Shown: one piece after another, positions 1,715 through 59,287 of the stretch | Layout: each line of letters opens with the position of its first letter | Position numbering within the stretch: position 1 is the stretch's first letter | Assembly: GCA_964016885.1 (NCBI GenBank) | Contig: OZ024742.1 | Coordinates: 297,724,001 to 297,788,000, forward strand | Length of the DNA: 64,000 nucleotides | Source: Eledone cirrhosa | Taxonomy: Eukaryota | Direction: 5' to 3' | Program-made: the position numbers and the translations under genes | The notes under the pieces: model-generated | What the model saw: the letters and a program-made list of their open reading frames with translations, nothing else | Told to the model about the DNA's origin: nothing | The model's database searches: none

Positions 1715-2345
1715 AAAAAAATGAATCTGTGAATGCAGAAGTAAATATTTCGAAAAACGTTACAACCGAAGGAAGACAGGCAGACGATACTTTGGTTCGT
1801 GGAAACGTTCCCTGGCAAAGAACGGAAAAAACGAAGATAATACGTCATTATTTGGAGCGGTAAAAACAAATACATGCAAAGACAAAATCACGTTTATGGT
1901 ATAAATGAAGTTGTAGACTAATATTCTATTAGGTGGTTCATATTATCTTCTTCATTTTTTCCGTTCATTGCCAGAGAACGTCTCCACGAACCACCTAATA
2001 GAATATTAGTCTACGACTTCATTTATAGCATAAACGTGATTTTGTCTTTGCGTGTAATTGTTCTCATTGATCCACATAATGACGTATTATCTTCGTTTTT
2101 TCCGTTCATTGCCAGAGAACGTCTCCACGAACCACCTAATAGTCTACAACTTCATTTATACCATAAACGTGATTTTGTCTTTGCATGTATTTGTTTTCAC
2201 TGCTCCAAATAATGACGGATTATCTTCGTTTTTTCCGTTCTTTGCCAGGGAACGTTTCCACGAACCAAAGTATCATCTTCCTGTCTTCCTTCAGTTGCAA
2301 CGTTTTTCGAATTATTTACTTCTGCGTTCACAGATTGATGTTTTT

Positions 2346-5805: not shown

Positions 5806-6130
5806 TCTATATACATATATCTATATACATATATCTATATATATATATATGTCTGATGGTTGCTAAGATGCTTCCATAGGCGGTATGCCAGTTGAGCACT
5901 CTATGCTCTTACAGAGCAGAGTATGATAGAATAGAAAATGAAAAATCAGTGATGCATCTGAACTCATATATCTATATATATATATATATATATGCACATA
6001 TATATACATATGTATATATATGTATATATGTATATATATATATATGCATATATATATATATATGTGTATATATACATATATATATATATATGCATATATA
6101 TATGTGCACACACACTGACATATATATATA

Positions 6131-31836: not shown

Positions 31837-31957
31837 CTGCCTAAAGAATTCTTCTAAAAGCAAATCTGTCCATTTCTTATGCATACTCCATTCTTTGGCA
31901 GGATGGCTGATATCAGCACAGTGCAACACAAGGGATAAAGCTTTGGATTTTTCAATG
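31837..31957 (-). CDS. PDE1: PDE1 coding exon
   Basis: tttgcAG|C...CAG|GTatgt; 121 nt, phase 2-0; IEKSKALSLVLHCADISHPAKEWSMHKKWTDLLLEEFFRQ; LH.ADISHPAK is PDE1-characteristic. Confidence 0.97.
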
Positions 31958-34789
31958 CTGCAAAAGTAATAATTTTAAAATATCTTGTTAATTCATATTT
32001 CTAAAGGATATTGGGTTTTCTTTTTGCATTAAATGTTTTTTGACTACAATGGTATTTTGACAGATATTTCACAGATACATTCTGATATTTTATCACATTT
32101 CTATATTCATTTGTAATAACAGTTAAGAGATTATTCAATGAAAAAACTGTGATAATATGAGGCAGAGAAGAACCTTTCGTCTTGCCAAGGACTTAACAAG
32201 TTCTCTAATGCTAGTGCTTTGATATGGTAGAATACCTTTAGTATAGAACAGTTGAACAAAGACAATATAAGTTTGAGATGATCTAATCTTGTCAAGGACA
32301 AATGGAACGTATACCCAAGGTGTGATTCATTGATCCATTTAGAAAGACAATAACCATCAATAAGAACTAATTTTAATTGTGACCAACTGTCCAAATTATG
32401 CCAGCATAGAGACAATCTTGGTTAAGGATGGAATTAAATATGAATGGTATGTATTAATGCAATTTATCATGGAACCAAGAATTCCCCATTACAGAATGTA
32501 CAGGATGCATTTTGTAAGGCACCAGCACTAACATTTTAAAGAGTTTATCAAGTGCATTTTAGCATGACACTGGTATTTCCATTTTCCTGAGTTTACAAGA
32601 TGTATTTTATTGCGGTAGAGTGCACCATAGTAGTGATGATACCACAATAAAATGTACCCAGTACACACTGTACAGAAACAGTGTGGTGCTATAAAAATGC
32701 ACAAATATTTATAGCCACATTTAATACCATACTAAATAATGATCATTTCAACAAATACTTTTCCTCTTCAGAAATGTATCCTATGTTTTCTGATGTTTTA
32801 TCTTTCTCCTAATCAAATATAATATTGCAGAATAAAGAAAAAATAAAAGATTGCTTATTTTAAATTCATCATTGTGTATATGCTAATTATTATAGTGTTT
32901 AGACGATACACTTCAAGTTTTATTTTTGTAGCATTAAGGAGTTGTTAATAGACACATATATGTTTATGGAAAGGCACTTCAAAGAACATAATGGTAACCG
33001 TATTGCATCGTTTCATGTCTAAGAGAAAAGAAATATGACAAAACGCTCTGGTTAAACCTGGAAATTTAATACAAAAGCAACTGGAGGATAGCAAAAAAAT
33101 GTAGACCCAATATCAATAGAAATAGGAAATGTGGACTCTGCATGCAGAGATCTGGCTAATTCTTAAGAACTCATTAGATCCTAATGCTTGTTTTAATACC
33201 AGAAACAAATTACGAAACCCTGCTTGCACAGCAGAAAATCTTTCCTTCATTTCTAGTTTCCACACAACCAGATACCCACAGATTATCTTGACAGATAAAC
33301 AGGAAAATAGACTCGATATCGAATTGAGAAAAAAATACTCATACTGAAATGCTGTATCAGAAATTAATACAACACAAAGAGGAATGTTTTTTTCCATGCG
33401 TTGCTTCCCTTGGATCAGATAAAAAAAGTTTTTGCAAGTGATTAAATGCTGGAAGCATACTTCAAAGGAACTGAATTTGATGGTTGATTTGGAATGAATC
33501 TGCAACATAAACCTCTGAGTATTCTACAAAAATATATGCTTAGTTACTATACATTAAATAAGAGCGATTTTTCTGTCATAATTACGAATTCATACTCAGA
33601 TAATGCATATACATACATACTCATACATACATAAGCATATACATACATACTTTAGATGATGTATGTATATGCTTATGTACAAATATAAATGTACATATAC
33701 ACATATACATATATGTTCATACATATATATGTGTGTATATATATATATATATATAAACATATATAGCCTTAATTTTGTTCTGTTTTGGCTAATATATAAT
33801 CAAATACGAGCAACCATATCAACTTGCTTCTGTTTTCACTAATTAAATAAATAACACAGCTCTGTTATATTCAATTGAAGAGAGTTGTTTGACCCTAGGC
33901 CCATTTTTCTTGCTGCTAAACTAATATAATAGAACAAATCACCAAATATACTGGATAGTTATAAGTCTGCTTCAGCTACTGTAAGCACCAAATCTATTTA
34001 AGATATCAACTGTATCTACCAAGATGTTTTGCTATCAATTATAAACATTGAGACCAATTACCATTCTTCATTTTCCTCTCATCGTTTCACAATAACCAAC
34101 CATTTATTGAATTCCCATTAAAGATAGCATTGGCCGAAAACGCAATACTAACTAACCACAGCAGCTGTGTTAGACCCCAGAGATTTTGTATTACTTTTTG
34201 CTACCCAATTCTATAATTTCAAAAATTCTTATTTAGTATCTTCTATTCTCAACTTATTAACCTATTCTATAGCATTGGCTGAAAAAGCAACACCAACTAA
34301 TTATAGCAGCTGTTTTAGACTCCACAGTTTTTGTTTTTTTATCACTTCTTACTATCCAATTTTATATTTTTATATATCTTTCTCTTATCTTTTTATTATC
34401 TCCTAATCTCAATTATTTACCTATTCTATAACGTCCCTCCTCTATTTTCTCCAGAACCCTTTTTCGCCTACTTCCTCTGGCCTACTTTCATACACAATCC
34501 TTAGAATTTGATGTATAGATTTTACTTTCAACGCTTGACCGGCTCCACCCACGCCCTCATTGCTCTACAGGCAAGTTAAACCACCCCCACCTTCCACCCA
34601 CTGTCATGATAGACTTAATTGTGTTTACAAGAATTTTTTACCAATCCTCTTGACAACTACAATCTTCCCATATAAGGAAGGACCCCTTGAAAAGTTCAGC
34701 TATTTATTTACCAGGCTAAAAATTCTAATTTAGTCCAGAAATAGCTGTCAAAACGGCTTGAGCTCTGCCGTCGGGGTCATACATTTTCC

Positions 34790-34824
<35 letters not shown>

Positions 34825-37361
34825 TCTATTTTCTATTGACAGTCATAAGAATGAGTACTCATTATCATTGTACATAATATCTATTTATTATTGGCTTGTC
34901 TGTCTGTCTCACTCACTCTGTCTCTCTCTATATGTATATGTGTGTGTGTGTATGAAAACTTAGCATAAAAGGAATTGAATGTAGTGTGCAAGAAAAAACT
35001 GTGTTGGTATGAACATGTGATGTATATGGAAGGTAGCAGCTGCATAAAGAAATGCAGAGAATCCCAGTGGCTGGATCTCATGAAACAGGCAAACCCAGAG
35101 AGATTTGTGAAGACCAAATTTAAGAAGCTAAACCTCACAACAGAGTTGTCAAATGACTGGCAGAGCTGTTGCTATGCTGCACTGATGAAGACCCAGCAAC
35201 AAGCATATGATATGACCTGAGCCATCCTTGTTTCTCCCATACCTCTAGCAGTTTTCAGCAGCTATCCTCACCGCCACTGCAAGCCCACCATCCATGTCCT
35301 TTCCAATATCACTCTTTAGCCCGCTAAAGCCCTTAGATACTTATACCCCCACTCATCATACATCCATTACTTCATACGTACCTCCCTTCTCTCACAAACT
35401 CCGAATCTCACAGAGCAGAAAGGGCATCAGTTGGGATGATGTCCAACAACTTCTCTTGTGATGATGCCATGAAAATGCACTTGGCTCACTTGCCAAACAA
35501 ATGGTTGGGAGACCATTTAGTTGTGTCAAGGAAGTTTAAACCTCCCTAGTGTTGGTAATCTACAGGATAAATGTACCCAGTATATGTTGTAAACTTGTTG
35601 GTAATAGAAATGGCATCCAGCCATAGAAAGTGTGCCAAACAGAGGGTTGGGAAGACCGTTCTGTTGTGTCAAAACATGACAACCTTTTTAGTGCTGTTGT
35701 CATTAGAATATGCACCCTCTCTCTTATTTATGCAGCTCCATCTGCCAGTAATGAACCCAATTCTCCTCAGCAAAATAATTTCAACTTCCAGTTTAGTAAG
35801 CTAATAAACCTAGCTTTTGACACTACTTTCTCTGACCACATTAAGAAAATTACAAAGCCTGCCTTTTCCACTATATAATCAACAGTTATGTTAAATCATG
35901 TTACAGGTCATCACACTTGCTGCTTTGGATATTTCCACAATGATTCTATGCTGAAAATATATTTAGTGATTTATTTACTGATTGCAAAAAACCAAATATG
36001 TAAGTTAATGATTGAATTTGAATAAAACTGTGATCCCTTAAGCTTCAGTAATGTGACTTTCTGAGGTTGGCACCATAAGTGACTGTTTAGTTGGTCTTGT
36101 TGGTAGTGCTGCTCCTGGCTATATGTATCTGTGGTACACATTAGATGGATTATACCTGTAAATCAAATGTCCAGCCTTGTCACACATTGTGTAACACTGA
36201 GTCAGTTTGGGAAATTATTTTAATGGTATACGAGTGAAATATTTAGTTGGTCAAACAAGTGAATGTTCATTGTTGAAGATAATGGAGGATTTATTATAAG
36301 ATATAAAAAGTAGTCCGAGCTCCAAACATACAAAATATCACAAAACAACAAAAGATAATATATATAATATAGTGAACAAAACTTCCTATAATATATTATG
36401 CCAGAACTGCCATCTTATAGCACAATACCACTAATGTATACAATATAGTGACCAATAAAAAAGGTAAAGTAAACATTTGTGATCATCAAAGGAAAAACAT
36501 TTTATGTATTTTTTTTAATATCTAGATTATCAAGATTAGTATGTCTCAGATATGAATATGTGATAATATAGCCAACACATTGTAGAAAAACTGGTTTGAT
36601 ACATTTATATATATACTCAGCATTTGTTGTATTGTATGTACTATATAGATTTCCTTGTTAATGTTTTAACCCTTTTGATACTGAAAAACCGGAAACCACA
36701 CCTGATTTTACAATATTAAGCTGTTTGTTTTACAATGTTTATATTTATCACAAACCTCACATTATATGATGATAGCTTTTAGATCTTAGGTTATAATTAA
36801 ATTAAATGAAGTCTAATATATTGTTGTTTAGATATTATAGGAGTGTTTACATAATTTTTAGATTAGATGAAACTATAAACATATTAAATTGGCAGTATCA
36901 TTGACAAGTTTCCTTCATCTAAATGACACAGGTGGCACATGTTAAAGGTCCCTTGCATAATTTAATACAGTGGTTCTCAAAGTAGGCGCTACCACACTCC
37001 AAGGGTTAGGGGCGTTGGGACCTATTATGTAATAAATTTTAAGCTATCTTTAAAATTCTTCATTATTTTTACGATGATTTGAAAATAATCAATAGTCCTC
37101 TTCTTTTGAAATATGGTAATGAAGGAATTAATCTTAGCTATGGATTAACTTCAATTTTTTAATTCAGTAAGTTATTTTCAGATTTGCACAATTTATGATT
37201 AATTATGTTACTTGTCAAATAAGAGAGTCCAGTCAGTCAAGAAACATTCTAAAGTAGTCTTCATTTACTGTTTTGTTATGGATGGAAAGACATGGCTTAT
37301 GACATCTTTTCAGGGTCCTTATATATATATATCTGTCTGTGTGTGTGTGTGTGTATATATG

Positions 37362-37397
<36 letters not shown>

Positions 37398-37474
37398 ATT
37401 GGTGTTGGATGCTTAAAGCGTCCGTATGCAGTAGGCTGTATGAGCACTCGATGTTCTCATAGAGCAGAGTTTGC

Positions 37475-37846
37475 TATCACAGAAAAAAAGAGAATCAGTG
37501 TTGCGACGAATGGAATTTATTGGACATATTACAATCGTTTCTCTGCCGACCAGCTCGAGGCACGATCGATTTGATGATCGAACCTGACTCTGAAAATCGC
37601 AAGGTCCTCAGATACATCTTGATTCTACAAAGCAGATTTTCCTAGAATCAAGGTGTATCTGAGGACCATACGATTTTCAGAGTCAGATTTTTGTAGAATC
37701 AAGACGTATATGAGGACCTTGCGATTTTCAAAGTCAGGTTCGATCATCAAATCAATCGTGCCTCGAGCTGGTCACCAGAGAAACGATTGTAATATGTCCA
37801 ATAAATTCCATTCGTCGCAACACTGATTCTCTTTTTTTCTGTGATA
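37475..37846. repeat. Inverted repeat with about 157-bp arms
   Basis: 37475-37631 pairs with 37690-37846 with few mismatches; the spacer holds an extra partial arm (37643-37686). Confidence 0.92.
37523..37618 (-). ncRNA. Hammerhead motif with extended stem II (family C), sense to the PDE1 pre-mRNA
   Basis: GAUGUAU-CUGAGGA-[63 nt]-GAAAC-gauu-GUA^AUAUGUC; stem I 7 bp with 2 G-U pairs; minimal stem III. Confidence 0.5.
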
Positions 37847-38203
37847 TATATATATTTATTTATTTATTTGTATATATACACACATACATATACACATCAG
37901 GTTTTTGCAGTTTCTGTTGACCAAATTTCACTCACTCACAAATCATTGGTCAATCTGAGATTATGGTAGAAGACACTTGTCTAAGATGTTGCAGAATGGA
38001 AGTGAATCTAAAACTACATGGGTGTGAAGCAAAGTCTTTCATTATACAGCCATATCTACACTATTGTCTACTAAAAGAAATAATATGTCACTTTATCAAC
38101 ATCTCTCTCAACTGATAATATTCAAAGATTGAAATACCTTCTGTAAGGTTTGTTTATGTTATAGTCTCTAATATATTCATCTGAAATTGTATTCTCATTT
38201 TAT

Positions 38204-38643: not shown

Positions 38644-39182
38644 GATTTTTAATTTTGACACAAGGTTAGCAATTTTGGAGTGAGGAAAGTTGATTTAAAC
38701 CCAGCAATTTATGAGAAACACTTTTTATTAAACCTTGAAGGATGAAAGTAAAAGATAACCTCAGTGAAATCTGAACTCAGAAAATAAAAAGTTAGAACAC
38801 AGCATTTTCTCTAATGATTCTGATAATCAACTACACTAATAAAAATAATAATAATAATAATAATTGTTTCTACTTTTATTCTACTAATTATTCCAGTGCA
38901 TTATTGGTACTTCCTTTTATTGACCCCGTAAGGATGAAAGGCAAAATTAAGCTCGGCAGGATTTGAATTCAGATCATAAAGGAACGTAACTCTATGCTTC
39001 AAAGCATGGTGTCCAACTCTCTACCGATACTGCCAATCTACTGCCCTATAATAATTATAATAATAATAATTGTTTCTACTTTAGGCACAAGGCCAGCAAA
39101 TACCCAGTGCATTACTGGTACTTTATTTTATCGACCCCGTAAGGATGAAAGGCAAAGTCAACCTCGGCGGGATTTGAACTCA
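38644..39182 (-). mobile_element. Three tandem copies of the same SINE
   Basis: About 38644-38835, 38864-39046 and 39070-39182, separated by (AAT)n. Confidence 0.82.
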
Positions 39183-39519
39183 ATTATAATAATAATAATG
39201 CCATATACACACTAATAGACATTGCAACACCCTCTGACTAAAATATTGCTTAAAAAGAAAAGAAAACTGTCAAAATACAAGGATCTTGAAATTGAAATAT
39301 ATATGGTGTGGGACATGAATTGTAAAAAGAGTGTGAGGAACAATTAGAGCACTGGGTATGATAAAACAAAATATGAACAAAAATAGATTTGCTTGGAACA
39401 ACACACCTCTTGAATAAGATCCAGTTGGATGCACTGCCTAACACCAGCTTTATACTATAGAGATATGATGTCTTACAACATGTATAAAACAGTTATTTGT
39501 AGATATTCAAGATACTTAC

Positions 39520-39621
39520 CCTTCTGTCAGAGTGAGTATACTTTTCATGTTTTTGATTTGCTGGAAATGAAAGGACATGTCGGTGGCCAAAACCATGTCT
39601 ATCAGCAGACTCCGGAATTCT
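39520..39621 (-). CDS. PDE1: PDE1 coding exon
   Basis: tttccAG|A...GG|GTaagt; 102 nt, phase 2-2; EFRSLLIDMVLATDMSFHFQQIKNMKSILTLTE(G), with the VLATDMS.HF motif. Confidence 0.96.
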
Positions 39622-42473: not shown

Positions 42474-42608
42474 TTGTTTCTACTTTTGGCACAAGGCCAT
42501 CAATTACCCAGTACATTACTGGTACTTTATTTTATCGACCCCGTAAGGATGAAAGGCAAAGTTAACCTCGGCGGGATTTGAACTCAGAATGGCAAGGGCC
42601 GTAACTCT
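42474..42608 (-). mobile_element. Same SINE family, 5'-truncated
   Basis: Nearly identical to 11276-11410; similar truncated copies at 26929-27017 and 49219-49310. Confidence 0.82.
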
Positions 42609-42640
42609 AACATTCAATTCATTTGCAATTATGCACACAC

Positions 42641-42703
<63 letters not shown>

Positions 42704-42715
42704 CACACATATATA

Positions 42716-45700
42716 TGTGTGCAAGAGACTAGATGGAGAGGAGAGTCTGCTAGCGTCCTTGTACGAAAAAGTCAGTGCTACAAATTTTTCTGGGTGGGAA
42801 ATGACGATGGGATTGGTGGTGTAGGTATTCTACTAGCTGACAAGTGGGTAGATAAAGTAATCTCAGTGTACAGGGTAAATGCAAGAATCATTAAACTCAG
42901 ACTAGTCCTGAATAAAACAATTACCACAATAATATCAGCTTACGCACCCCAACCGGGGTTGCCAGACGAACTTAAGGATAGAGTCCCTAATGCACACTAC
43001 TGCTCTAACAAACGACAATGACTTCCTAATCATCGCAGGAGATTTTAACGGACACGTAGGTAAACACTGTGACGGCTTCAATAGAGTCCATGGAGGCCAT
43101 GGGGTTGGCACAAAAAATGAAGAAGGATTCAGACTTCTAGAATTCTGCGACGCCAATGACATGTCAATATGTAACACAAACTTCAAAAAACCTGACAACC
43201 ACCTGATCACCTATAGATCAGGGGAACATTCTAGTCAGATATATTTTATCCTCATCAGAGGATGTGACAGATGGACGGTCGTAAACACAAAAGCCTTCCC
43301 TAGTGAGGAATGTACCTCCCAACATAGCTTAGTTGTCAGCGACCTCACGGTCAGAACTAGATGAACCTGGAAACAGAGGCCAACATCTGGAGAAGAAAGA
43401 TCTGGAAGCTGAAAGACCCCTCAGCCAGTAACAGATTTAAAGATATTTTACTCAACACCTACGACAGTAGAGAAGAACAGATAGAGACATTCAATGTAGA
43501 AGAGCACTGGGAGTTCCTAAAAAATAACTTACTAGAGGCTACGGATGAGGTCTGTGGTTGGAGTAAGACCACAAGCAGGAGGAGAGTGACTTGGTGGTGG
43601 AAAAATAAGGTAGATGAGGCAGTTAAGGCCAAGACACAGGCATGGAAAGAATGGAAGAACAGGGGAGCAGGGTACATTACATAGAGACCAAGCGGGAAGC
43701 TAGGCAACAAGTATACTTAGCTAGGAGGGAAGCAGAAGATAGAAAATTCAAGCATGTTTTGCAACGTGAGGACCAGAAACAGGAGGTGTTCAAGATTGCG
43801 AGGCAGTGTGTCAGAGAGAATTGTGATGTCATTGGAGAGAAGTGTATCCGGAATGATAAAGGTGAGCTTGCCCTCATAAGTGCTGAGAAGAAAGATGCAT
43901 GGAAGAGCCATTATGATAGATTACTAAATGAGGAGAATGCATGGGAAGAAGAGACCCTACCCCAAGTAGACCCTATAGAGGGGCCAGCAGTACAAGTCAG
44001 CAGCAGCGTAGTAAGTAAGGAAATCAAAGATATGAAGATGGGGAAGGTAACCGGTCCATCAGGTATAGCTGCCGAGATGCTGAAGGCATCTGAGTCTGTA
44101 GGTCACACTATAACCACACGTATTGTTAACTAGAAGGTGTCATACCAAAACATTGGTGCAGTAGCGACATTGTCAACTGCTACAAAGGTAAAGGTGATGC
44201 ACTCGATAGAGGAATCTATAGAGGTATAAAGCTGATGGACCAGGTCATGAAAGTAACAGAAAGAGTTATAGAACAGTTGATTAGGGACCGGGTGAAACTA
44301 GATGAGATGCAATTTGGGTTTGTACCAGGAAGAGACACCACTGATGCCCTTTTCCTTGTGAGACAGTTACAGGAAAATACCTAGCTAAAGGTAAGCCACT
44401 CTACCTGGCATTCGTTGATCTCGAGAAAGCCTTTGACAGAGTTCCACGTGCTGTAATCTGGTGGGGTCTTAGAAAACTAGGAGTAGATGAATGGCTTGTG
44501 AAAGCTGTACAAGCCATGTATAGGGGAGCAGTCAGCAAAGTTAGGATTAGCAATGAGTATAGCGAGGAATTTAGCGTACAGGTTGGTGTCCACCAGAGCT
44601 CTGTTCTTACCCTTCTCCTGTTCATCATAGTCCTGCAGGCAATAACGGAGGAGTTTAAGACCGGATGACATGGGAACTCCTGTATGCTGATGACCTCACA
44701 CTTATAGCTGAATCTATGGTAGAACTAGAGAAGAAATTCCAAACTTGGAAGCAGGGACGAGAAAGAAAGGGTCTCAAAGTCAACATGACAAAGACTAAGG
44801 TCCTTGTAAGTAGACGAGAAAACAGAACCCAGATCCCTTCAGGGAAATGGCCTTGCTCAGTATGTAGGAAAGGTGTAGGTAGGAACTCCATTCTCTGCCT
44901 CAAATGCAAACAATGGGTACACAAGAGATGTAGTGGGATCTCAGGAAGCTTAATTAAAAATGTAGGCTTCACATGTAGCAGCTGTGCTGGGACAGCAAGC
45001 AGCAAACAGCCACAGGAAACAAGTACCACCAATCTCTGGGAGGGCTCTGTAGAAACAGTAGACAGCTTCTGCTACCTTGGTGACCGAATTAGCAGCTGAT
45101 GTGGGTGTTCAGAAAGTACAGTAACCAGGGTAAGAACGGGATGGAAGAAGTTCAGGAAGCTACTGCCACTGCTAGCTGCAAAAGGCTTCTCCCTCAAAAT
45201 GAAAGGCTGACTGTATGATGCGTGTATCCGAACAGCAATGTTACATGGTAGTGAGACCTGGGCGCTGAAGGTGGAAGACTTACATAGATTAGAAAGAAAC
45301 GAAGCCTGCATGCTCCGATGGATGTGTAATAGTAATATACGCGAACGGCAAAGCATAAATGAATTTTGAGAGAGACTGAGCATAAGAGGAATCAAACGCT
45401 GTGTGCAGGAGAGGCGGTTGCATTGGTATGGACATGTGATGCATATGAAGGATGACAGCTGCATCAAAAGGTACAGAGCACTAGAAGTCGATGGAAACCG
45501 CGGAGTGGGGAGACCCAAGATGACCTGGGATGAGATGATAAAAGCTGACCTTACCCAATTACACCTCTCAAAGGCGATGACACACGACCGTGACCTCTGG
45601 CGTCACACAGTAATACAGAGTACCCGACCTCCCATGGGTACTAGCTGAAGCATATAGACAATATGCCCCCACACCCTCCCACTGCAAAGTGGTCATGGAG

Positions 45701-53284: not shown

Positions 53285-53501
53285 GAATGCCATGGTTGAC
53301 GGAGGCTCGGCTCTGTAAGGCATTGTAAATTTTGACCGCTATAACAATTGTAAATTGTTTAAAACTTTAACCAACTTGTAGACAAAAACACCCTCCTCCT
53401 CGTGAGAGGGGTCTTTCTGCCCATTATTTGGCCCTTCGGGGTTAAATAACCGCTTATTGGGGTTTTGTGCCCAATATTTATTTTAAACAAAAAAAAACAA
53501 C

Positions 53502-55587
53502 ATGGCTACGAAAAAGAATTTTCATAGGTCACTCCCACTCATTCCATCTTTTTCTTCCTCAATCGTCACTACAGCAGAGAGAAGATTGTCTCTCTCCCTC
53601 CCTTCTCTTTCGCAAGCGACGACAGAAAAGAAAAATCTCGTGCAAAGCGTGCAAGATTTCTCCATGACGACGACGACAACGACGAAACAGGTGTGCGGGA
53701 AATACGAAAACCCATTTCATTCGTCTGACGTCAGGAATAATAGCAGTAGCAGCCGTAATAACAACAGCAACAGTGACAAGGAAAACAACAGTAGCAGCCG
53801 CAACAGCATCAGCAGCAGCATAAACAACAACAGCATTAGCAGCAGCAACAACAACAACAACCACAGCAACAGCGGCGGCGGCAGTAGTCGTAGTACCTGC
53901 AGCAACAACAAAAGTAACAGCAGCTCTGACGACAACAACAACAACAACAGCAGCAAAGAAAAACCAATCTCGTTTGCAGGTATCGCAAAGAACCTGGAAA
54001 CCATCCTCATAACAAATGAGGAATTAGAGGAAGCGAAGAAGATGGTGACAAAAACTGGACACCGAGCAATCTGCAAGGCAGTGGAAAATTTTTTCGAAAC
54101 CCAACAGCACTGTACGGTCACGTACCGTACAGTAAGTACAAAATCCCGTAGGGTTGAAAGAGCCACAGAGGCTAAAATACAAAAAGCCTTGGGGTCTGTG
54201 TGGAAGCGGAAAACGCACATCACCCGAAGCAAGAAATATGCCACCGTAGACGTACTTTTTGCCACACCCCAGGAGGCAAAGGCTCAATCCTTAGTGACCC
54301 TAAGGAGCGAGGAAATGGTGTTGGTGACCTCCTACTGCGGGCAAAAAATTGTGAGGGTCAAACTGACCCACGTCCCCCCCCCCCCCCGGGATGGCCCCTT
54401 CTTGGCTGGCGGCGTCTGTCCTCGTCGGAATCGAGGACAAAACAACTATACTGCAAGTACAGAAAAAAGTAAGAGAAGATTGGGTCGGCACCTCCATTGA
54501 GATGTTAATCCAAACCAACCAGGAGTGCATCGAAGCTATCCCGGATGGGATAGACTTCGATAACGGCACTCAACTGCCCATAAGTGTTGAGGGCAAATGC
54601 CCGAAATGCTTTCGCTGTGGATCGAAGACTCACCTCAGGGCCTTCTGCAATGAGAACACCCTGAGAAAGGAGAAAACCCCCCTCCTTCCGAAACCGGCTC
54701 CACGGCTACCAGCAACAGGACAAGCGGCAACCAGGAACGATAGGTCCGTGGCACCCATACCCACGCCACGGAAATCAAAAACAGCAGCAGCAGTGGAAGT
54801 ATTGACAACAACAACAGCAATACCAAATGCAGCTGCAACAGAGACTCCAGTGCAAACATCACCAACAACAACAAGTGAAAAAGTGGAGCTGGTACCCCTC
54901 CCCGACCTCACAGAATCAGACATGGAGTGTGAGGTCGGAGAGTGATGGCAAAAGGTCGTAAGAAGGCACAAACGCAGAAGCAGCGCATCGTCGCCTTTGA
55001 AAAGGGAGGAAAGAAATGAAAAAAGGGTAAAGGCTACTGCAAAGAGACTCACAGCAGCAACACGACCAACACCATCACGACCCACACTAGCACCACCATC
55101 ACCACCGGCGACAACCCCACCGCCAACAACACCTTCAACACCACCACCACAAGCACCAACATCGCAAACACAACAACAAAACACACACACCCAGCAACAA
55201 CGACAAGAAAATAGCAGAACCACACCCCACCCCCAGAAAAACAAATGCACAGCAATAAATACACACAACAAGAAACTAATGACTTACATAATTGAACACA
55301 CAGACATTTCACAACACGACTACATAATACCAGCACCAATCAAAACGCCAACTAACATAAGACTGCTAAAAATAGCACAGAAACAATACACAAACATTAA
55401 AACGAAATTCCCCAACGCAGTTGGTGATTTCAGAGACGTAGGAGCGACACTCAACCGAAGAGTATATTCGGACATACTCAGAGAAGAGCCGACGACCAGC
55501 CGAAGGGACGATTCAACGGTCAGTTCACCAGACGATCAAGTGAAAAGGGATGTAAAAACCATCCCTCCTCTACGAAAAGTACGGTAA
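53502..55587 (+). pseudogene. Tx1-like ORF1 (gag-like zinc-knuckle protein), frameshifted
   Basis: ORF pieces 53502-54500, 54391-54945 and 54997-55587 join across a frameshift at the C14 run (54374-54387) and a TGA at 54943; CFRCGSKTHLRAFC is CX2CX4HX4C; Asn/Ser and Pro/Thr low-complexity tracts. Confidence 0.8.
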
Positions 55588-55622
55588 GTGGTCTTTCCCA
55601 TCTTTTCCACTCTATTTTAAAC

Positions 55623-58600
55623 ATGACCTCACTCAGAATAGGCAGCATAAATGCGCGTGGCTTGGGGTCGTCATGGAAGCAGGGTCACCTGCTCAACGAC
55701 CTCAGGTCACTAAACATAGATGTAGTGGCCATCAGCGAGACCAGAATCTCCGAAGCACGGGCCTTCGCACCGATCTTCGGCGGCTACGATGTGTACGCAT
55801 CTCCCAGCCGTCCTGGATCGGGGGGAGGAGTTGCTGTGCTTTTTCGGAGAGGTTTGGATCTCCTGGACCCATCTTCCTGGACCCAGAGGGTAAGTTGGTG
55901 GTGCTGGACGTGACCAGCGGAGACGGGCAAGCTTTCAGGCTAGTGGCCGTCTATGCCCCGACAGAGGTAGGGCGCCTGATTTCTTCCGGCGTCTGGAGAC
56001 CTTTCTTGGAACGTCCCGCTCTTTAGTGTTAGTGGGCGACTGGAGCGGGATCTTAGATGCACGCTGGAACTGTGTGGGATTAGCGGATAGGGGTGGAGGG
56101 TGCAGGAGCCTCACCAACCTGCTCAGGCGCTTTGAACTGTCTGACAGGTACCGATTGGATTTCCCGAATGTGCCAATGTGGACTTGGACAAATCGCATAT
56201 GGTCATCCAGATCATATCTAGAGTATTTTGTAGGGAAATAGATAGGTCTAGCATAGGCTGTCCACAATTCAAGATAGTCAGCTACACGGACCACAAATTC
56301 GTGATCTGTCTGCTTGACTTAGATAGGCTTCATAGACGAAGACCCGGCTAGTGGAAGCTAAACGCGTCCTTACCAGCGCGCAAGGCCTACAGAGACCGGA
56401 TTAGCGAACTAGTTAAGCGGGCGTTGACGGGGGCCATCGTCAACAACAAGTGGTGGTTTGCTCTGAAAAGAGCGATTAGAATAGAATCCATTAGGTTTAG
56501 TAAGGCGTTAGCAATAAAGAAAAATAGAGCAGAGGGAGAACTAGTTAGAAAATTAGACGAGGCGCTTAGCAAAGGCATTGTGACTGACGTGCTTGCGGCG
56601 AAATTGGCCCTTGACCAATTCTTCAATGCAAAGCACGAAGGCTGCGTTGTCAGAGCTAGGGTGCGTGCTCTCAGACACGAGGGGACGAAAGCCGTTCAAT
56701 AGGCCCGAGTGGCGGAGGCGCGTCGTGGCAACAAAGCCACGATCCGGTCTTTGGTGGACCACGACGGGCGCATGCTACTCGAACCCGGGCAAATGTCTGA
56801 AGCTTTTCAGCCACACTTCACTCAGCTGTTCGGGGGGCAGTGGTGGGCCGGGTCGAGGGATGGACTTTAGTGTCTACCTCGACAGACTGCCGCAGCTCTC
56901 GACCACTGAGGCGGAGTGTTGAGAAAAGCCGATAACAGCCGCTGAAGTAAGGGAGGCAATGACTGGCTGCACAAGGGGTAAATCGCCTGGTTTGGATGGT
57001 CTGCCGTATGAACTTTACGTACAGATGCCAGACTTGTTCGGAGGCCTCTTGGTGGACGTCTACTGCAACTGGCAACAGAACGGGAGAATTCCCAGTTCTG
57101 TGAGCCGAGGAGCAGTGGCACTGCTGAGAAAGGATCCGAACAAGGGGGATAACATAGATAATTTCAGGCCCATAACTCTGCTAAACACAGAGTTCAAGAT
57201 TTTGGCCAAGGTGCTAGCAAAGAGGTTGGCGCTTGTCGTTGGTGGTCTGGTGGGAGAGGCGCAGACATGCGCCATTCCCGACAGATCCATCCACGACAAC
57301 CTCCACCTCATGTGATACATCGTAGAGAGGGTAGCTAGGGAACCTGGCACGGGTGGGTCCTTGATCAATTTAGATCAGTCGAAAGCTTTCGATAGGGTCG
57401 ACCATCGTTACCTAGCGGCAGTCCTGAGGGCGGCTGGCTTTGGGCCCGTCTTCAGAGGCTGGATCGCTGCCATGCACAGCGACATCTGCTCTGTGGTGAG
57501 AGTGAACGGTCACCTTTCGGAACCGTTCAACATCATGCGCTCGGTCCGCTAAGGATGTCCCCTCTCGTCCCTCTTGTACGTATTGACTCTCGAGCCATTA
57601 CTGCACAAACTGGAGACGTTGAGGGGCGTCCTGCGCGAACTAGGATGCGGAAGATCCGTGTCAGCATATGCGGACGGTGTCACTGTAGTGGTGTCGAACG
57701 CCAAACACATCGAGGCGATTGGCACTACACTAAGAGAATACGAAGCGGTGACAGGAGCAATGATCAACCAAGAAAAGTCAGTGGGCCTGCAGCTTGGCAC
57801 CTGGAGAGGCAGGTCCATGCCGTCCAACAGCGTCGTCGGACGCTGGACGGACGGACCGGTTAAATTGCTAGGGGTCTGGTTCGGTCCGGACCTCCAGATG
57901 GACAAAAACTGGGACGAGGTGACGAGCAGGGTGGCTTCTCTCACCCAGAAATAGGCGGAGAGGAAGCTATCCCTGAAAGGTCGAGCGGAGGTGGCTATCA
58001 CGTACATCGCGTCTGTCATCTGCTACCGCCTGACCGTCGTACCTTGTCCTAAGACTCGCCTGACTGCGCTGGAGCGTTTACTCTTTCGCTTTTTGTGGAA
58101 GGGACGCGCTCCGATGGTCAGGCGGTCCATCTGTTGTCAACACCCGCTACGTGGAGGGCTGGGCATGCCGTGCCTGATGATGTGCAGGCACGTGTGCTCA
58201 GGCTACGACATCTCCACCTCTTCCTCGACGGTGATCAGATGTGGTCGCCGTTTGCTAGACACGTATTTCCCCAGCTCGTTTCCTTGACGGAGCTGCAGTC
58301 CTGGGTCAAGCGAAGACCGAGAGGGAGCGCCTGGAGACTGGAATGTCTTCAGGCGCTCACAGCCCTCGACCAATCGGGCAATGTCATCGGTGGAAACTCC
58401 ACCTCGGCGTTCTATAGAGGATTAGTGGAGGGGAAGAGCGACGACGTACTTGGGGAAACTCTAGGCGTCGACGAAAATCAACTAGCCAATCTCTTTGGAA
58501 GAACTTTCGGGCCAGGGCCTATGGACAACTTCCAGAAATCTCTGGCCTGGCAGTGCTACCGAGGAGCCTTGCCAGTTCGGGATAAACTCTACAGGCATGG

Positions 58601-59036
58601 AGGTGCCGTCAGCCGGGCATGTCCGAGATGCGCGCAGGGCGACGAAACCGTCCTGCACGCACTCGTCCAGTGTCCGAAAATTGCTGACTTGTGGGTTTAT
58701 GTCGAACACCTGCTGTCGCATGTAGGATGGATCCAGCTATCATCTGAGTCCATCGTGAGGATTGCCCCGCCCTCCTCCTTTAGCCGGGAAGGGCAGGCAG
58801 TTTTTATCTGTCTGGTGGCCATGGCGAAAGAGATAGTATGGTGGACACGTTTGAAAGGGCTGAAGACGAGCACTTATCTCTTCGGTGATGCCCTGATTGA
58901 CTTTTTCAAATTTCATTTGAAAAGGAAAATCAGAGTAGAGAGGGAAGTGCTCTCTTCCCAGCATTTTGTTGAAAGATGGGTGAGAGAAGCAAGAATGGCC
59001 CGAGTGAATGGGCCTACTCTGAGTATATATCTGTAA
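55623..59036 (+). pseudogene. Tx1-like ORF2 (AP endonuclease-reverse transcriptase), multiple stops and frameshifts
   Basis: MTSLRIGSINARGL..SET, VYAP, LVGDW (APE); KSPGLDG, FRPITLLN, LDQSKAFDRV, VR*GCPLS, AYADG (RT, with YADD mutated); CPRC...ETVLHALVQC (C-terminal Zn motif). Confidence 0.92.
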
Positions 59037-59287
59037 ATTAAAGGTGGAAAACTGGGAGAGGGCACTTGCCTTAGTGGTCAGGGTCACTGTGGCCTTTTAC
59101 TGGACTTTCTCCACAAATGTCCCTCAGAAGTCTCCCCCCTATTGGGGAATTTTTCATTGTTATTTTTTTGTTACATCCTCTGTTTTTGTTTTTTACACGC
59201 AGAAATGCCCATTTGTACCGTACTGTATTGTCCTGCACTGTCCTTAATGTCTACTTTATGTAAACCCTTGTGGTTAATAAAGAAATC

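What the first reader, a model, noticed from the sequence alone, without database searches (positions are those of the whole stretch)
37400..37846. Intronic hammerhead with a 63-nt stem II on the PDE1 sense strand, locked inside a 157-bp hairpin
Seen: on the minus (transcribed) strand, 37618 to 37523 reads stem I-CUGAGGA-[63 nt insert]-GAAAC-gauu-GUA-stem I'. The inverted copy on + has a mutated core (AUGAGGA), and a third partial arm with an intact CUGAGGA sits in the spacer. In the pre-mRNA the antisense arm is made first and could capture the ribozyme. Inference: competition between self-cleavage and long dsRNA formation, and the dsRNA would be a strong ADAR substrate, notable given the extensive A-to-I editing known in coleoid neural transcripts. 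A leader-only relative lies at 5850-5965.
Basis: partly seen in the sequence, partly recalled or inferred. Interest (0 to 1): 0.75.

Follow-up and report, generated by a model that had tools for sequence, protein, structure and literature searches.

The report
Long-armed hammerhead in Penelope transposon stub
This hairpin is the leftover end of a Penelope-type jumping gene, one of more than a thousand similar copies in a likely octopus genome, joined to an inverted copy of itself; its predicted self-cutting RNA has an unusually long, conserved arm but is predicted to be locked shut here, so it likely does not regulate the host gene.

Summary
The regulatory reading is not supported. The stretch is the 5'-truncated 3' end of a Hydra-clade Penelope-like retrotransposon (PLE), inserted in (TA)n. 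The genome has 1,343 exact matches to the core pattern. Full-length copies encode RT plus a C-terminal GIY-YIG with the Hydra motifs. In 16 of 30 loci an inverted arm stops at the same base, leaving a 77-nt tail, which is the published PLE layout. Both extra arms are antisense in the pre-mRNA. The hammerhead fold costs about 136 kcal/mol, so no real competition is predicted, and its palindromic stem III suggests it needs a second sense copy that is absent here. Core and stem II show compensatory changes across subfamilies, yet dispersed copies decay neutrally, so selection acts on the transposon, not the host. The unusual part is the 61-63-nt stem II (12-26 nt in published Hydra elements). This scan noted it before on other DNA. 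Editing and cleavage are untested; no RNA run was listed.

The parts
37398..37644 (-). Sense 3' end (pseudo-LTR plus tail) of a 5'-truncated Hydra-clade Penelope-like element, subfamily A; 9 of 234 nt differ from the subfamily majority
37523..37618 (-). Type I hammerhead motif: stem I 37618-37612 with 37529-37523, CUGAGGA 37611-37605, GAAAC 37541-37537, GUA 37532-37530, predicted cut 37530|37529
37542..37604 (-). 63-nt stem II, a bulged hairpin conserved across five subfamilies; C-A first pair; private C-to-G at 37546 breaks one pair
37531..37538 (-). Stem III and loop, ACGAUUGU, self-complementary (predicted dimer interface)
   Evidence: duplex -5.8 kcal/mol; ACAAUUGU in subfamilies B, D, E
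37398..37474 (-). 77-nt tail present only on the sense copy; starts with a hairpin conserved in subfamilies A-D
   Evidence: loose ends to (TA)n at 37475 in 13-17 contigs per DNA run
37690..37846 (+). Inverted 5' copy (positions 1-157 of the repeat), core C3 changed to A at 37710
37643..37689 (+). Second, short inverted piece (positions 5-51), intact CUGAGGA at 37659-37665, antisense in the pre-mRNA; 2-nt overlap with the sense copy at the junction
37319..37397 (.). (TA)n/(TG)n microsatellite at the 3' end of the element (target site)
   Evidence: (TA)n follows the 3' end in 29 of 30 subfamily A loci
37847..37896 (.). (TA)n-rich flank at the end of the inverted arm
39518..39620 (-). PDE1-like exon upstream of the host intron (approximate ends)
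31837..31960 (-). PDE1-like exon downstream of the host intron (approximate ends)
5852..5966 (-). 3' end and tail of sister subfamily D, without the hammerhead

Best explanation
This is the 5'-truncated end of a Hydra-clade Penelope-like retrotransposon joined to inverted copies of itself in a (TA)n tract of a PDE1-like intron; its long-armed hammerhead likely serves the transposon and is predicted to be silent here. Shown: family membership, copy number, the two recurring end points (157 and 234), the conserved fold, neutral decay of copies. Inferred: in a full-length partial tandem (pLTR-ORF-pLTR) two same-sense hammerheads would pair through the palindromic stem III and cut or process the element's RNA. 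Inferred: reverse transcription started at two sites 77 nt apart on the element RNA, and template switches at the 5' junction left two inverted pieces. Predicted: in the pre-mRNA both inverted pieces are made first and pair with the motif as it emerges, giving a stable 157-bp duplex that is probably edited by ADAR as a bystander and removed with the intron.
For: 1,343 exact matches to core + 62-63 nt + core, 0 in the reversed control. All 40 scored hits 94-96% identical apart from the window itself. 11 of 17 long stretches show pLTR, ORF start, endonuclease and a 3' pLTR in order. The ORF carries RRMRWRA, DKT, YRDD, CxCx5C, CxxC and CxH, the Hydra diagnostics of PMC8557442 section 11, and matches Hydra-1_Obim motif by motif by eye; GIY-YIG hit is weak (E 0.014). 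Inverted arm upstream in 18 of 30 subfamily A loci, 16 ending at 157/158, window included; 11 of 11 in subfamily C end at 157. Inverted 5' copy plus tail is described in PMC8557442, two RT start sites in PMC11167929, opposite-strand hammerhead pairs 100-700 bp apart in PMC4209133. 8 of 29 pairs change on both sides, 90% of cells paired, slid controls 26-41%; an unguided consensus fold recovers stem II with 6 such pairs. Private substitutions in 145 copies: core 20 seen vs 25 expected, stem II 140 vs 135. Folding energies.
Against: Cleavage was not tested. The first pair of stem II is a mismatch, two of five subfamilies carry U4C, and even the lone majority sequence puts the hammerhead fold 6 kcal/mol above its ensemble, so the motif may cut poorly or act as a protein-bound structure. 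In one search the count of pairs with double changes did not beat the shuffles (249 of 500), five subfamilies give few independent events, and subfamily C was left out of that alignment; with it included only 1 of 11 predicted pairs changed on both sides (where a gap is misplaced). The window's stem II alone is not clearly more stable than shuffles (z -1.36). Raw core substitution rates were lower than background in A, B and E before base composition and shared variants were controlled. Copies are best BLAST hits, so biased to young ones. Pfam and PDB did not recognise the RT; no tree was built.
Confidence: 0.9

Rival explanations
1. A host switch: self-cleavage competes with long-duplex formation, tuned by ADAR editing, to control PDE1 pre-mRNA.
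For: The motif is on the sense strand of a PDE1-like intron with an intact core. The duplex holds 92 adenosines. Intronic, repeat-overlapping editing is common in squid (PMC9068888 passages).
Against: About 136 kcal/mol favours the hairpin. No second sense copy for a dimer lies in the window. The layout recurs at many loci. This copy's private changes weaken stems I and II. The insertion is about 4% from its subfamily majority, so young. The paper ties repeat editing to ubiquitous, not neural-type, sites.
Confidence: 0.04
2. The long stem II is the selected unit (a binding or dimerising arm for the element's protein) and the catalytic core is partly relaxed, so the motif need not cut at all.
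For: Stem II length 61-63 nt and fold kept across subfamilies 68-91% alike. U4C fixed in D and E, mismatched first pair in all. In a Poseidon PLE the hammerhead cut only with protein and was not needed for insertion in vitro (PMC11167929).
Against: GAAAC, GUA, C3, G5, A6, G8, A9 and the palindrome are kept in all five majority sequences, and N7, the free position, varies, which is the pattern of a catalytic core.
Confidence: 0.25
3. A MITE-like or chance hairpin with an accidental hammerhead match.
For: Long terminal inverted repeat in a TA target; Rfam sees no hammerhead.
Against: The repeat is attached to an RT-GIY-YIG ORF, the arms are unequal with a fixed 77-nt tail, and the core and stems covary.
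Confidence: 0.01

Closest known systems
Hydra clade of C-terminal EN+ Penelope-like elements (Craig et al. 2021, PMC8557442; includes Hydra-1_Obim from Octopus bimaculoides)
   Same: Single ORF with RT and C-terminal GIY-YIG, RW(K/R), DKT, CxCx5C, CxxC, CxH; (TA)n target; type I hammerhead near the 3' end with palindromic stem III and often a mismatched first pair; inverted 5' copy (Penelope-13_HM has hammerheads on both strands, File S2).
   Different: Core spacer 61-63 nt against 12-26 nt in the 26 Hydra rows of File S2 (my count by eye); unit 4.4-5.2 kb against generally under 3 kb, with a long linker between RT and EN; tail 77 nt against 30-40; U4C in two subfamilies; a different family from Hydra-1_Obim.
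PLE hammerheads (Cervera and De la Pena 2014, PMC4209133)
   Same: Type I motif in pLTRs, short palindromic helix III, dimer-dependent with low activity, mostly single truncated copies, pairs on opposite strands 100-700 bp apart.
   Different: Their helix II is 7-8 bp with a conserved G10.1-C11.1; here about 20 bp in five bulged helices with no such pair.
PLE-X1_sMoe and PLE-X1_sTam hammerheads of spike mosses (PMC8557442 File S2)
   Same: Long core spacer (about 48-54 nt by my count), flagged as deviating from the canonical structure.
   Different: Plant, EN-less Chlamys-related elements that target 28S rDNA; a short stem with a large loop rather than a long conserved bulged hairpin.
Inverted-repeat transposon pairs in introns as ADAR substrates (Alu pairs, recalled; squid repeats, PMC9068888)
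   Same: Long, near-perfect intronic duplex from transposon sequence.
   Different: Here one insertion event makes both arms; editing at this locus is untested.

Membership tests
Penelope-like element, Hydra clade | Single ORF with RT and C-terminal GIY-YIG endonuclease | tested here: met
   Order seen in 11 of 17 stretches; RT motifs by eye (YASIS, MGSSDS, YRDD, FLD); Pfam GIY-YIG E 0.014, below cut-off
Penelope-like element, Hydra clade | RWK, DKT, CxCx5C linker, CxxC and CxH motifs | tested here: met
   RRMRWRA (R for K), PSDKTGN, CNCRVGEEC, CKLC, CRH against section 11 and the supplement alignment
Penelope-like element, Hydra clade | pLTRs, inverted 5' copy, tail at one end | tested here: met
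Penelope-like element, Hydra clade | Insertion into (TA)n | tested here: met
   29 of 30 (A), 27 of 30 (B), 27 of 30 (C), 20 of 30 (D) loci
Penelope-like element, Hydra clade | Length generally under 3 kb | tested here: not met
   pLTR-to-pLTR 4.4-5.2 kb in the uninterrupted copies; a typical trait in the paper, not a strict criterion
Penelope-like element, Hydra clade | RT phylogeny groups with Hydra elements | not tested
   Reference proteins were seen only in a paper supplement; compared by eye
Type I hammerhead ribozyme | Core CUGANGA / GAAA / NUH | tested here: met
   Window; CUGAGGA with 63-nt spacer in 28 of 30 subfamily A loci; U4C in D and E
Type I hammerhead ribozyme | Three helices around the core, with covariation | tested here: met
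   stem III is 2 bp as a monomer, 8 bp as a dimer
Type I hammerhead ribozyme | Paired 10.1-11.1 position closing stem II | tested here: not met
   C-A, A-A, C-A, A-G, A-C in the five subfamilies; U-U mismatches are usual in published Hydra motifs and natural in others (PMC3088659)
Type I hammerhead ribozyme | Site-specific self-cleavage | not testable with these tools
   No RNA run listed; bench assay needed
Non-LTR retrozyme | Head-to-tail tandem units, each with a hammerhead, no ORF | tested here: not met
   Dispersed, inverted, ORF-linked copies; definition from 10.64898/2026.07.22.740005
Naiad clade | N-terminal endonuclease, DKA, no canonical hammerhead | tested here: not met
   Endonuclease is C-terminal, motif is DKT

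The most novel reading that the evidence does not exclude
Octopus Hydra-clade elements carry a distinct hammerhead class in which stem II has grown into a conserved 61-63-nt RNA domain that the element's own RT/endonuclease binds, making the ribozyme protein-switched and tolerant of U4C and an unpaired first pair; thousands of such motifs escape Rfam, and the inverted arm made at insertion is what lets sense copies survive in introns by locking them into ADAR-edited duplexes.
Probability: 0.25. Interest if true: 0.55.

Novelty: new variant of a known kind. Interest (0 to 1): 0.27.

Why it matters
For PDE1 it most likely does not matter. For ribozyme and transposon specialists, the family gives a natural hammerhead with a long, covarying stem II and natural core variants (U4C, unpaired 10.1-11.1) in five subfamilies, a ready set for asking what PLE hammerheads are for, which the papers read here call unresolved. 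It also shows that standard searches miss these motifs, and that PLE insertions are a likely mass source of long intronic duplexes in cephalopods.

Tried and rejected
Rfam, whole window (best 150 of 365 rows seen) and 37400-37850: only microsatellite and hairpin matches below gathering scores. RNA evidence: no RNA holder listed. Three DNA runs of one sample: depth over the element far above the flanks and loose ends at 37475, but no information on editing, cleavage or presence/absence. A type III wiring using the upstream UUCGUA was considered by eye and dropped: no stem I forms. A Naiad assignment was considered and dropped. Pfam and PDB did not identify the RT fragment; the protein atlas gave no answer. 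The first neutrality test (36 of 1537 vs 652 of 25043, p 0.62) mixed subfamily variants and base composition and was redone. Consensus folding with subfamily C included gave a weak result because of a misplaced gap. Literature: 'octopus' + 'hammerhead ribozyme', 'long stem II' + retrotransposon (0 papers) and searches listed nothing on long-armed Hydra hammerheads; Lunse et al. 2017 on dimeric PLE hammerheads was not held, and it or supplements I did not see may describe long stem II variants.

Full report
Observation. The minus strand 37618-37523 has a 7-bp stem I (two G-U), CUGAGGA, 63 nt, GAAAC-GAUU-GUA and the second stem I strand. The arms 37475-37631 and 37690-37846 are 96% complementary, and a second inverted piece at 37643-37689 pairs with 37581-37627. 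The host gene is a PDE1-like phosphodiesterase on the minus strand, so the motif is on the sense strand of an intron of about 7.5 kb. That the genome is an octopus is my inference from its size (3.0 Gb) and from recalled repeat types; no call names it.

What it is. A search of the genome with 37398-37631 gave 2,226 first-look candidates; the 39 scored copies besides the window were 94-96% identical. A tight pattern for core + 62-63 nt + core has 1,343 exact matches and none in the reversed control. Copies end at the same 3' base followed by (TA)n in 29 of 30 loci, and are cut at different 5' points. Following longer copies led to full-length elements: in 11 of 17 stretches a pLTR is followed by an ORF start, an endonuclease region and a second pLTR. 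The frames carry RRMRWRA, PSDKTGN, YRDD, CNCRVGEEC, CKLC and CRH. These are the features that PMC8557442 (section 11 read; passages; supplement parts 1, 2, 52 and a search) gives for the Hydra clade of PLEs, which already includes an octopus family. The copies I translated are broken by stops and frameshifts. Library support for the protein is thin.

The hairpin is an insertion product. An inverted arm lies within 400 nt upstream in 18 of 30 subfamily A loci; 16 stop at position 157/158, as in the window (which is one of the 30). In subfamily C, 11 of 11 arms stop at 157. Full-length copies also end at either 157 (6 copies) or 234 (2 copies), and 13-17 contigs per DNA run break into (TA)n at 37475. 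Two end points with a tail between them are the PLE signature, which PMC11167929 (parts 1-2 of 4 read) traces to two internal RT start sites. PMC4209133 (parts 1-2 of 4) already notes hammerhead pairs on opposite strands 100-700 bp apart. The two long arms share two differences from the subfamily majority, consistent with one template, and have six private ones. The AUGAGGA core is one of those; 8 of 9 subfamily A inverted arms that cover the core keep it, and 7 back-to-back pairs with both cores intact appear among the 100 rows listed.

The hammerhead is selected in the transposon. I collected 30 loci for each of five subfamilies, 68-91% alike. All keep C3, G5, A6, G8, A9, GAAAC and GUA; N7 varies; D and E have U4C; the spacer is 61-63 nt. 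On 32 real sequences from A, B, D and E (C left out), 90% of cells pair, 8 of 29 pairs change on both sides, covariation score and paired cells beat 500 of 500 shuffles, and slid controls drop to 26-41%. The number of doubly changed pairs did not beat the shuffles, and relatedness inflates these scores. An unguided consensus fold finds the same stem II. Stem III with its loop is self-complementary, the mark of dimer-dependent hammerheads. In contrast, substitutions private to one copy hit the core 20 times against 25 expected and stem II 140 against 135 (145 copies). So active source elements kept the structure, and inserted copies decay without sign of host selection. This copy's own changes at 37616 and 37546 weaken stems I and II.

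How it likely behaves in PDE1 pre-mRNA. Both inverted pieces are antisense and come first. In folds of the growing transcript the core pairs with the short piece at once and then with the long arm. Forcing the hammerhead costs 136 kcal/mol in the full context, 52 without the long arm, 10 for the sense copy alone. No second same-sense motif of this family is in the window. The motif is therefore predicted to be silent. Editing of the duplex is plausible: PMC9068888 (passages) reports that intronic and UTR editing in squid overlaps repeats, but classes it as mostly ubiquitous rather than neural. Editing enough of 157 bp to free the ribozyme is unlikely, by inference. No RNA run was available.

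Comparison and novelty. Layout, target and ribozyme type are known. The stem II is not matched in the 26 Hydra rows of the published table (12-26 nt by my count); spike-moss PLE-X motifs have 48-54-nt spacers, so long spacers have a distant precedent. My searches listed no paper on long-armed Hydra hammerheads; one relevant paper was not held. PMC3088659 (passages) shows natural mismatches at the first stem II pair. The retrozyme preprint 10.64898/2026.07.22.740005 (part 1 of 5 and passages) reports retrozymes depleted in frog introns. Earlier notes of this scan reached the same reading on other octopus DNA; they are unchecked and were consulted after my reading was fixed. The protein-handle idea and the tail hairpin were leads from those notes.

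Verdict. Real feature, ordinary at the locus, modestly new at the family level. Interest 0.27.

Noticed in passing
window 37474-37440 (-), and subfamilies A-D: The tail begins with a hairpin kept in four subfamilies, with a U-A to C-G change at the loop-closing pair; it sits right behind the internal end point and could mark an RT start site.
   Followed up: partly
L131-L190: Subfamilies D and E carry U4C (CCGAGGA, CCGACGA) with the rest of the core and a perfect ACAAUUGU palindrome intact; E is young (95-99% alike).
   Followed up: partly
L054-L067: The element is 4.4-5.2 kb with a long, poorly conserved linker between RT and endonuclease and a 3' region of about 1.7 kb that holds an embedded SINE-like piece in some copies.
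   Followed up: no
L011:1518-1997, L010:1626-1981, L014:1501-1975: Ends of different copies or subfamilies sit back to back in the same (TA)n tract, forming further inverted pairs.
   Followed up: no
window 5852-5966 (-): Tail-only fragment of subfamily D in a (TA)n tract, no hammerhead.
   Followed up: yes
window 42600-45650 (+): Broken LINE with endonuclease and RT pieces, RTE-like by recall.
   Followed up: no
window 53400-59050 (+): Broken two-ORF LINE, L1/Tx1-like by recall, with endonuclease and RT pieces.
   Followed up: no
window 38700-39180: Three copies of a SINE-like repeat.
   Followed up: no
window 1881-2047: Another long hairpin, picked up as a weak Rfam miRNA match.
   Followed up: no
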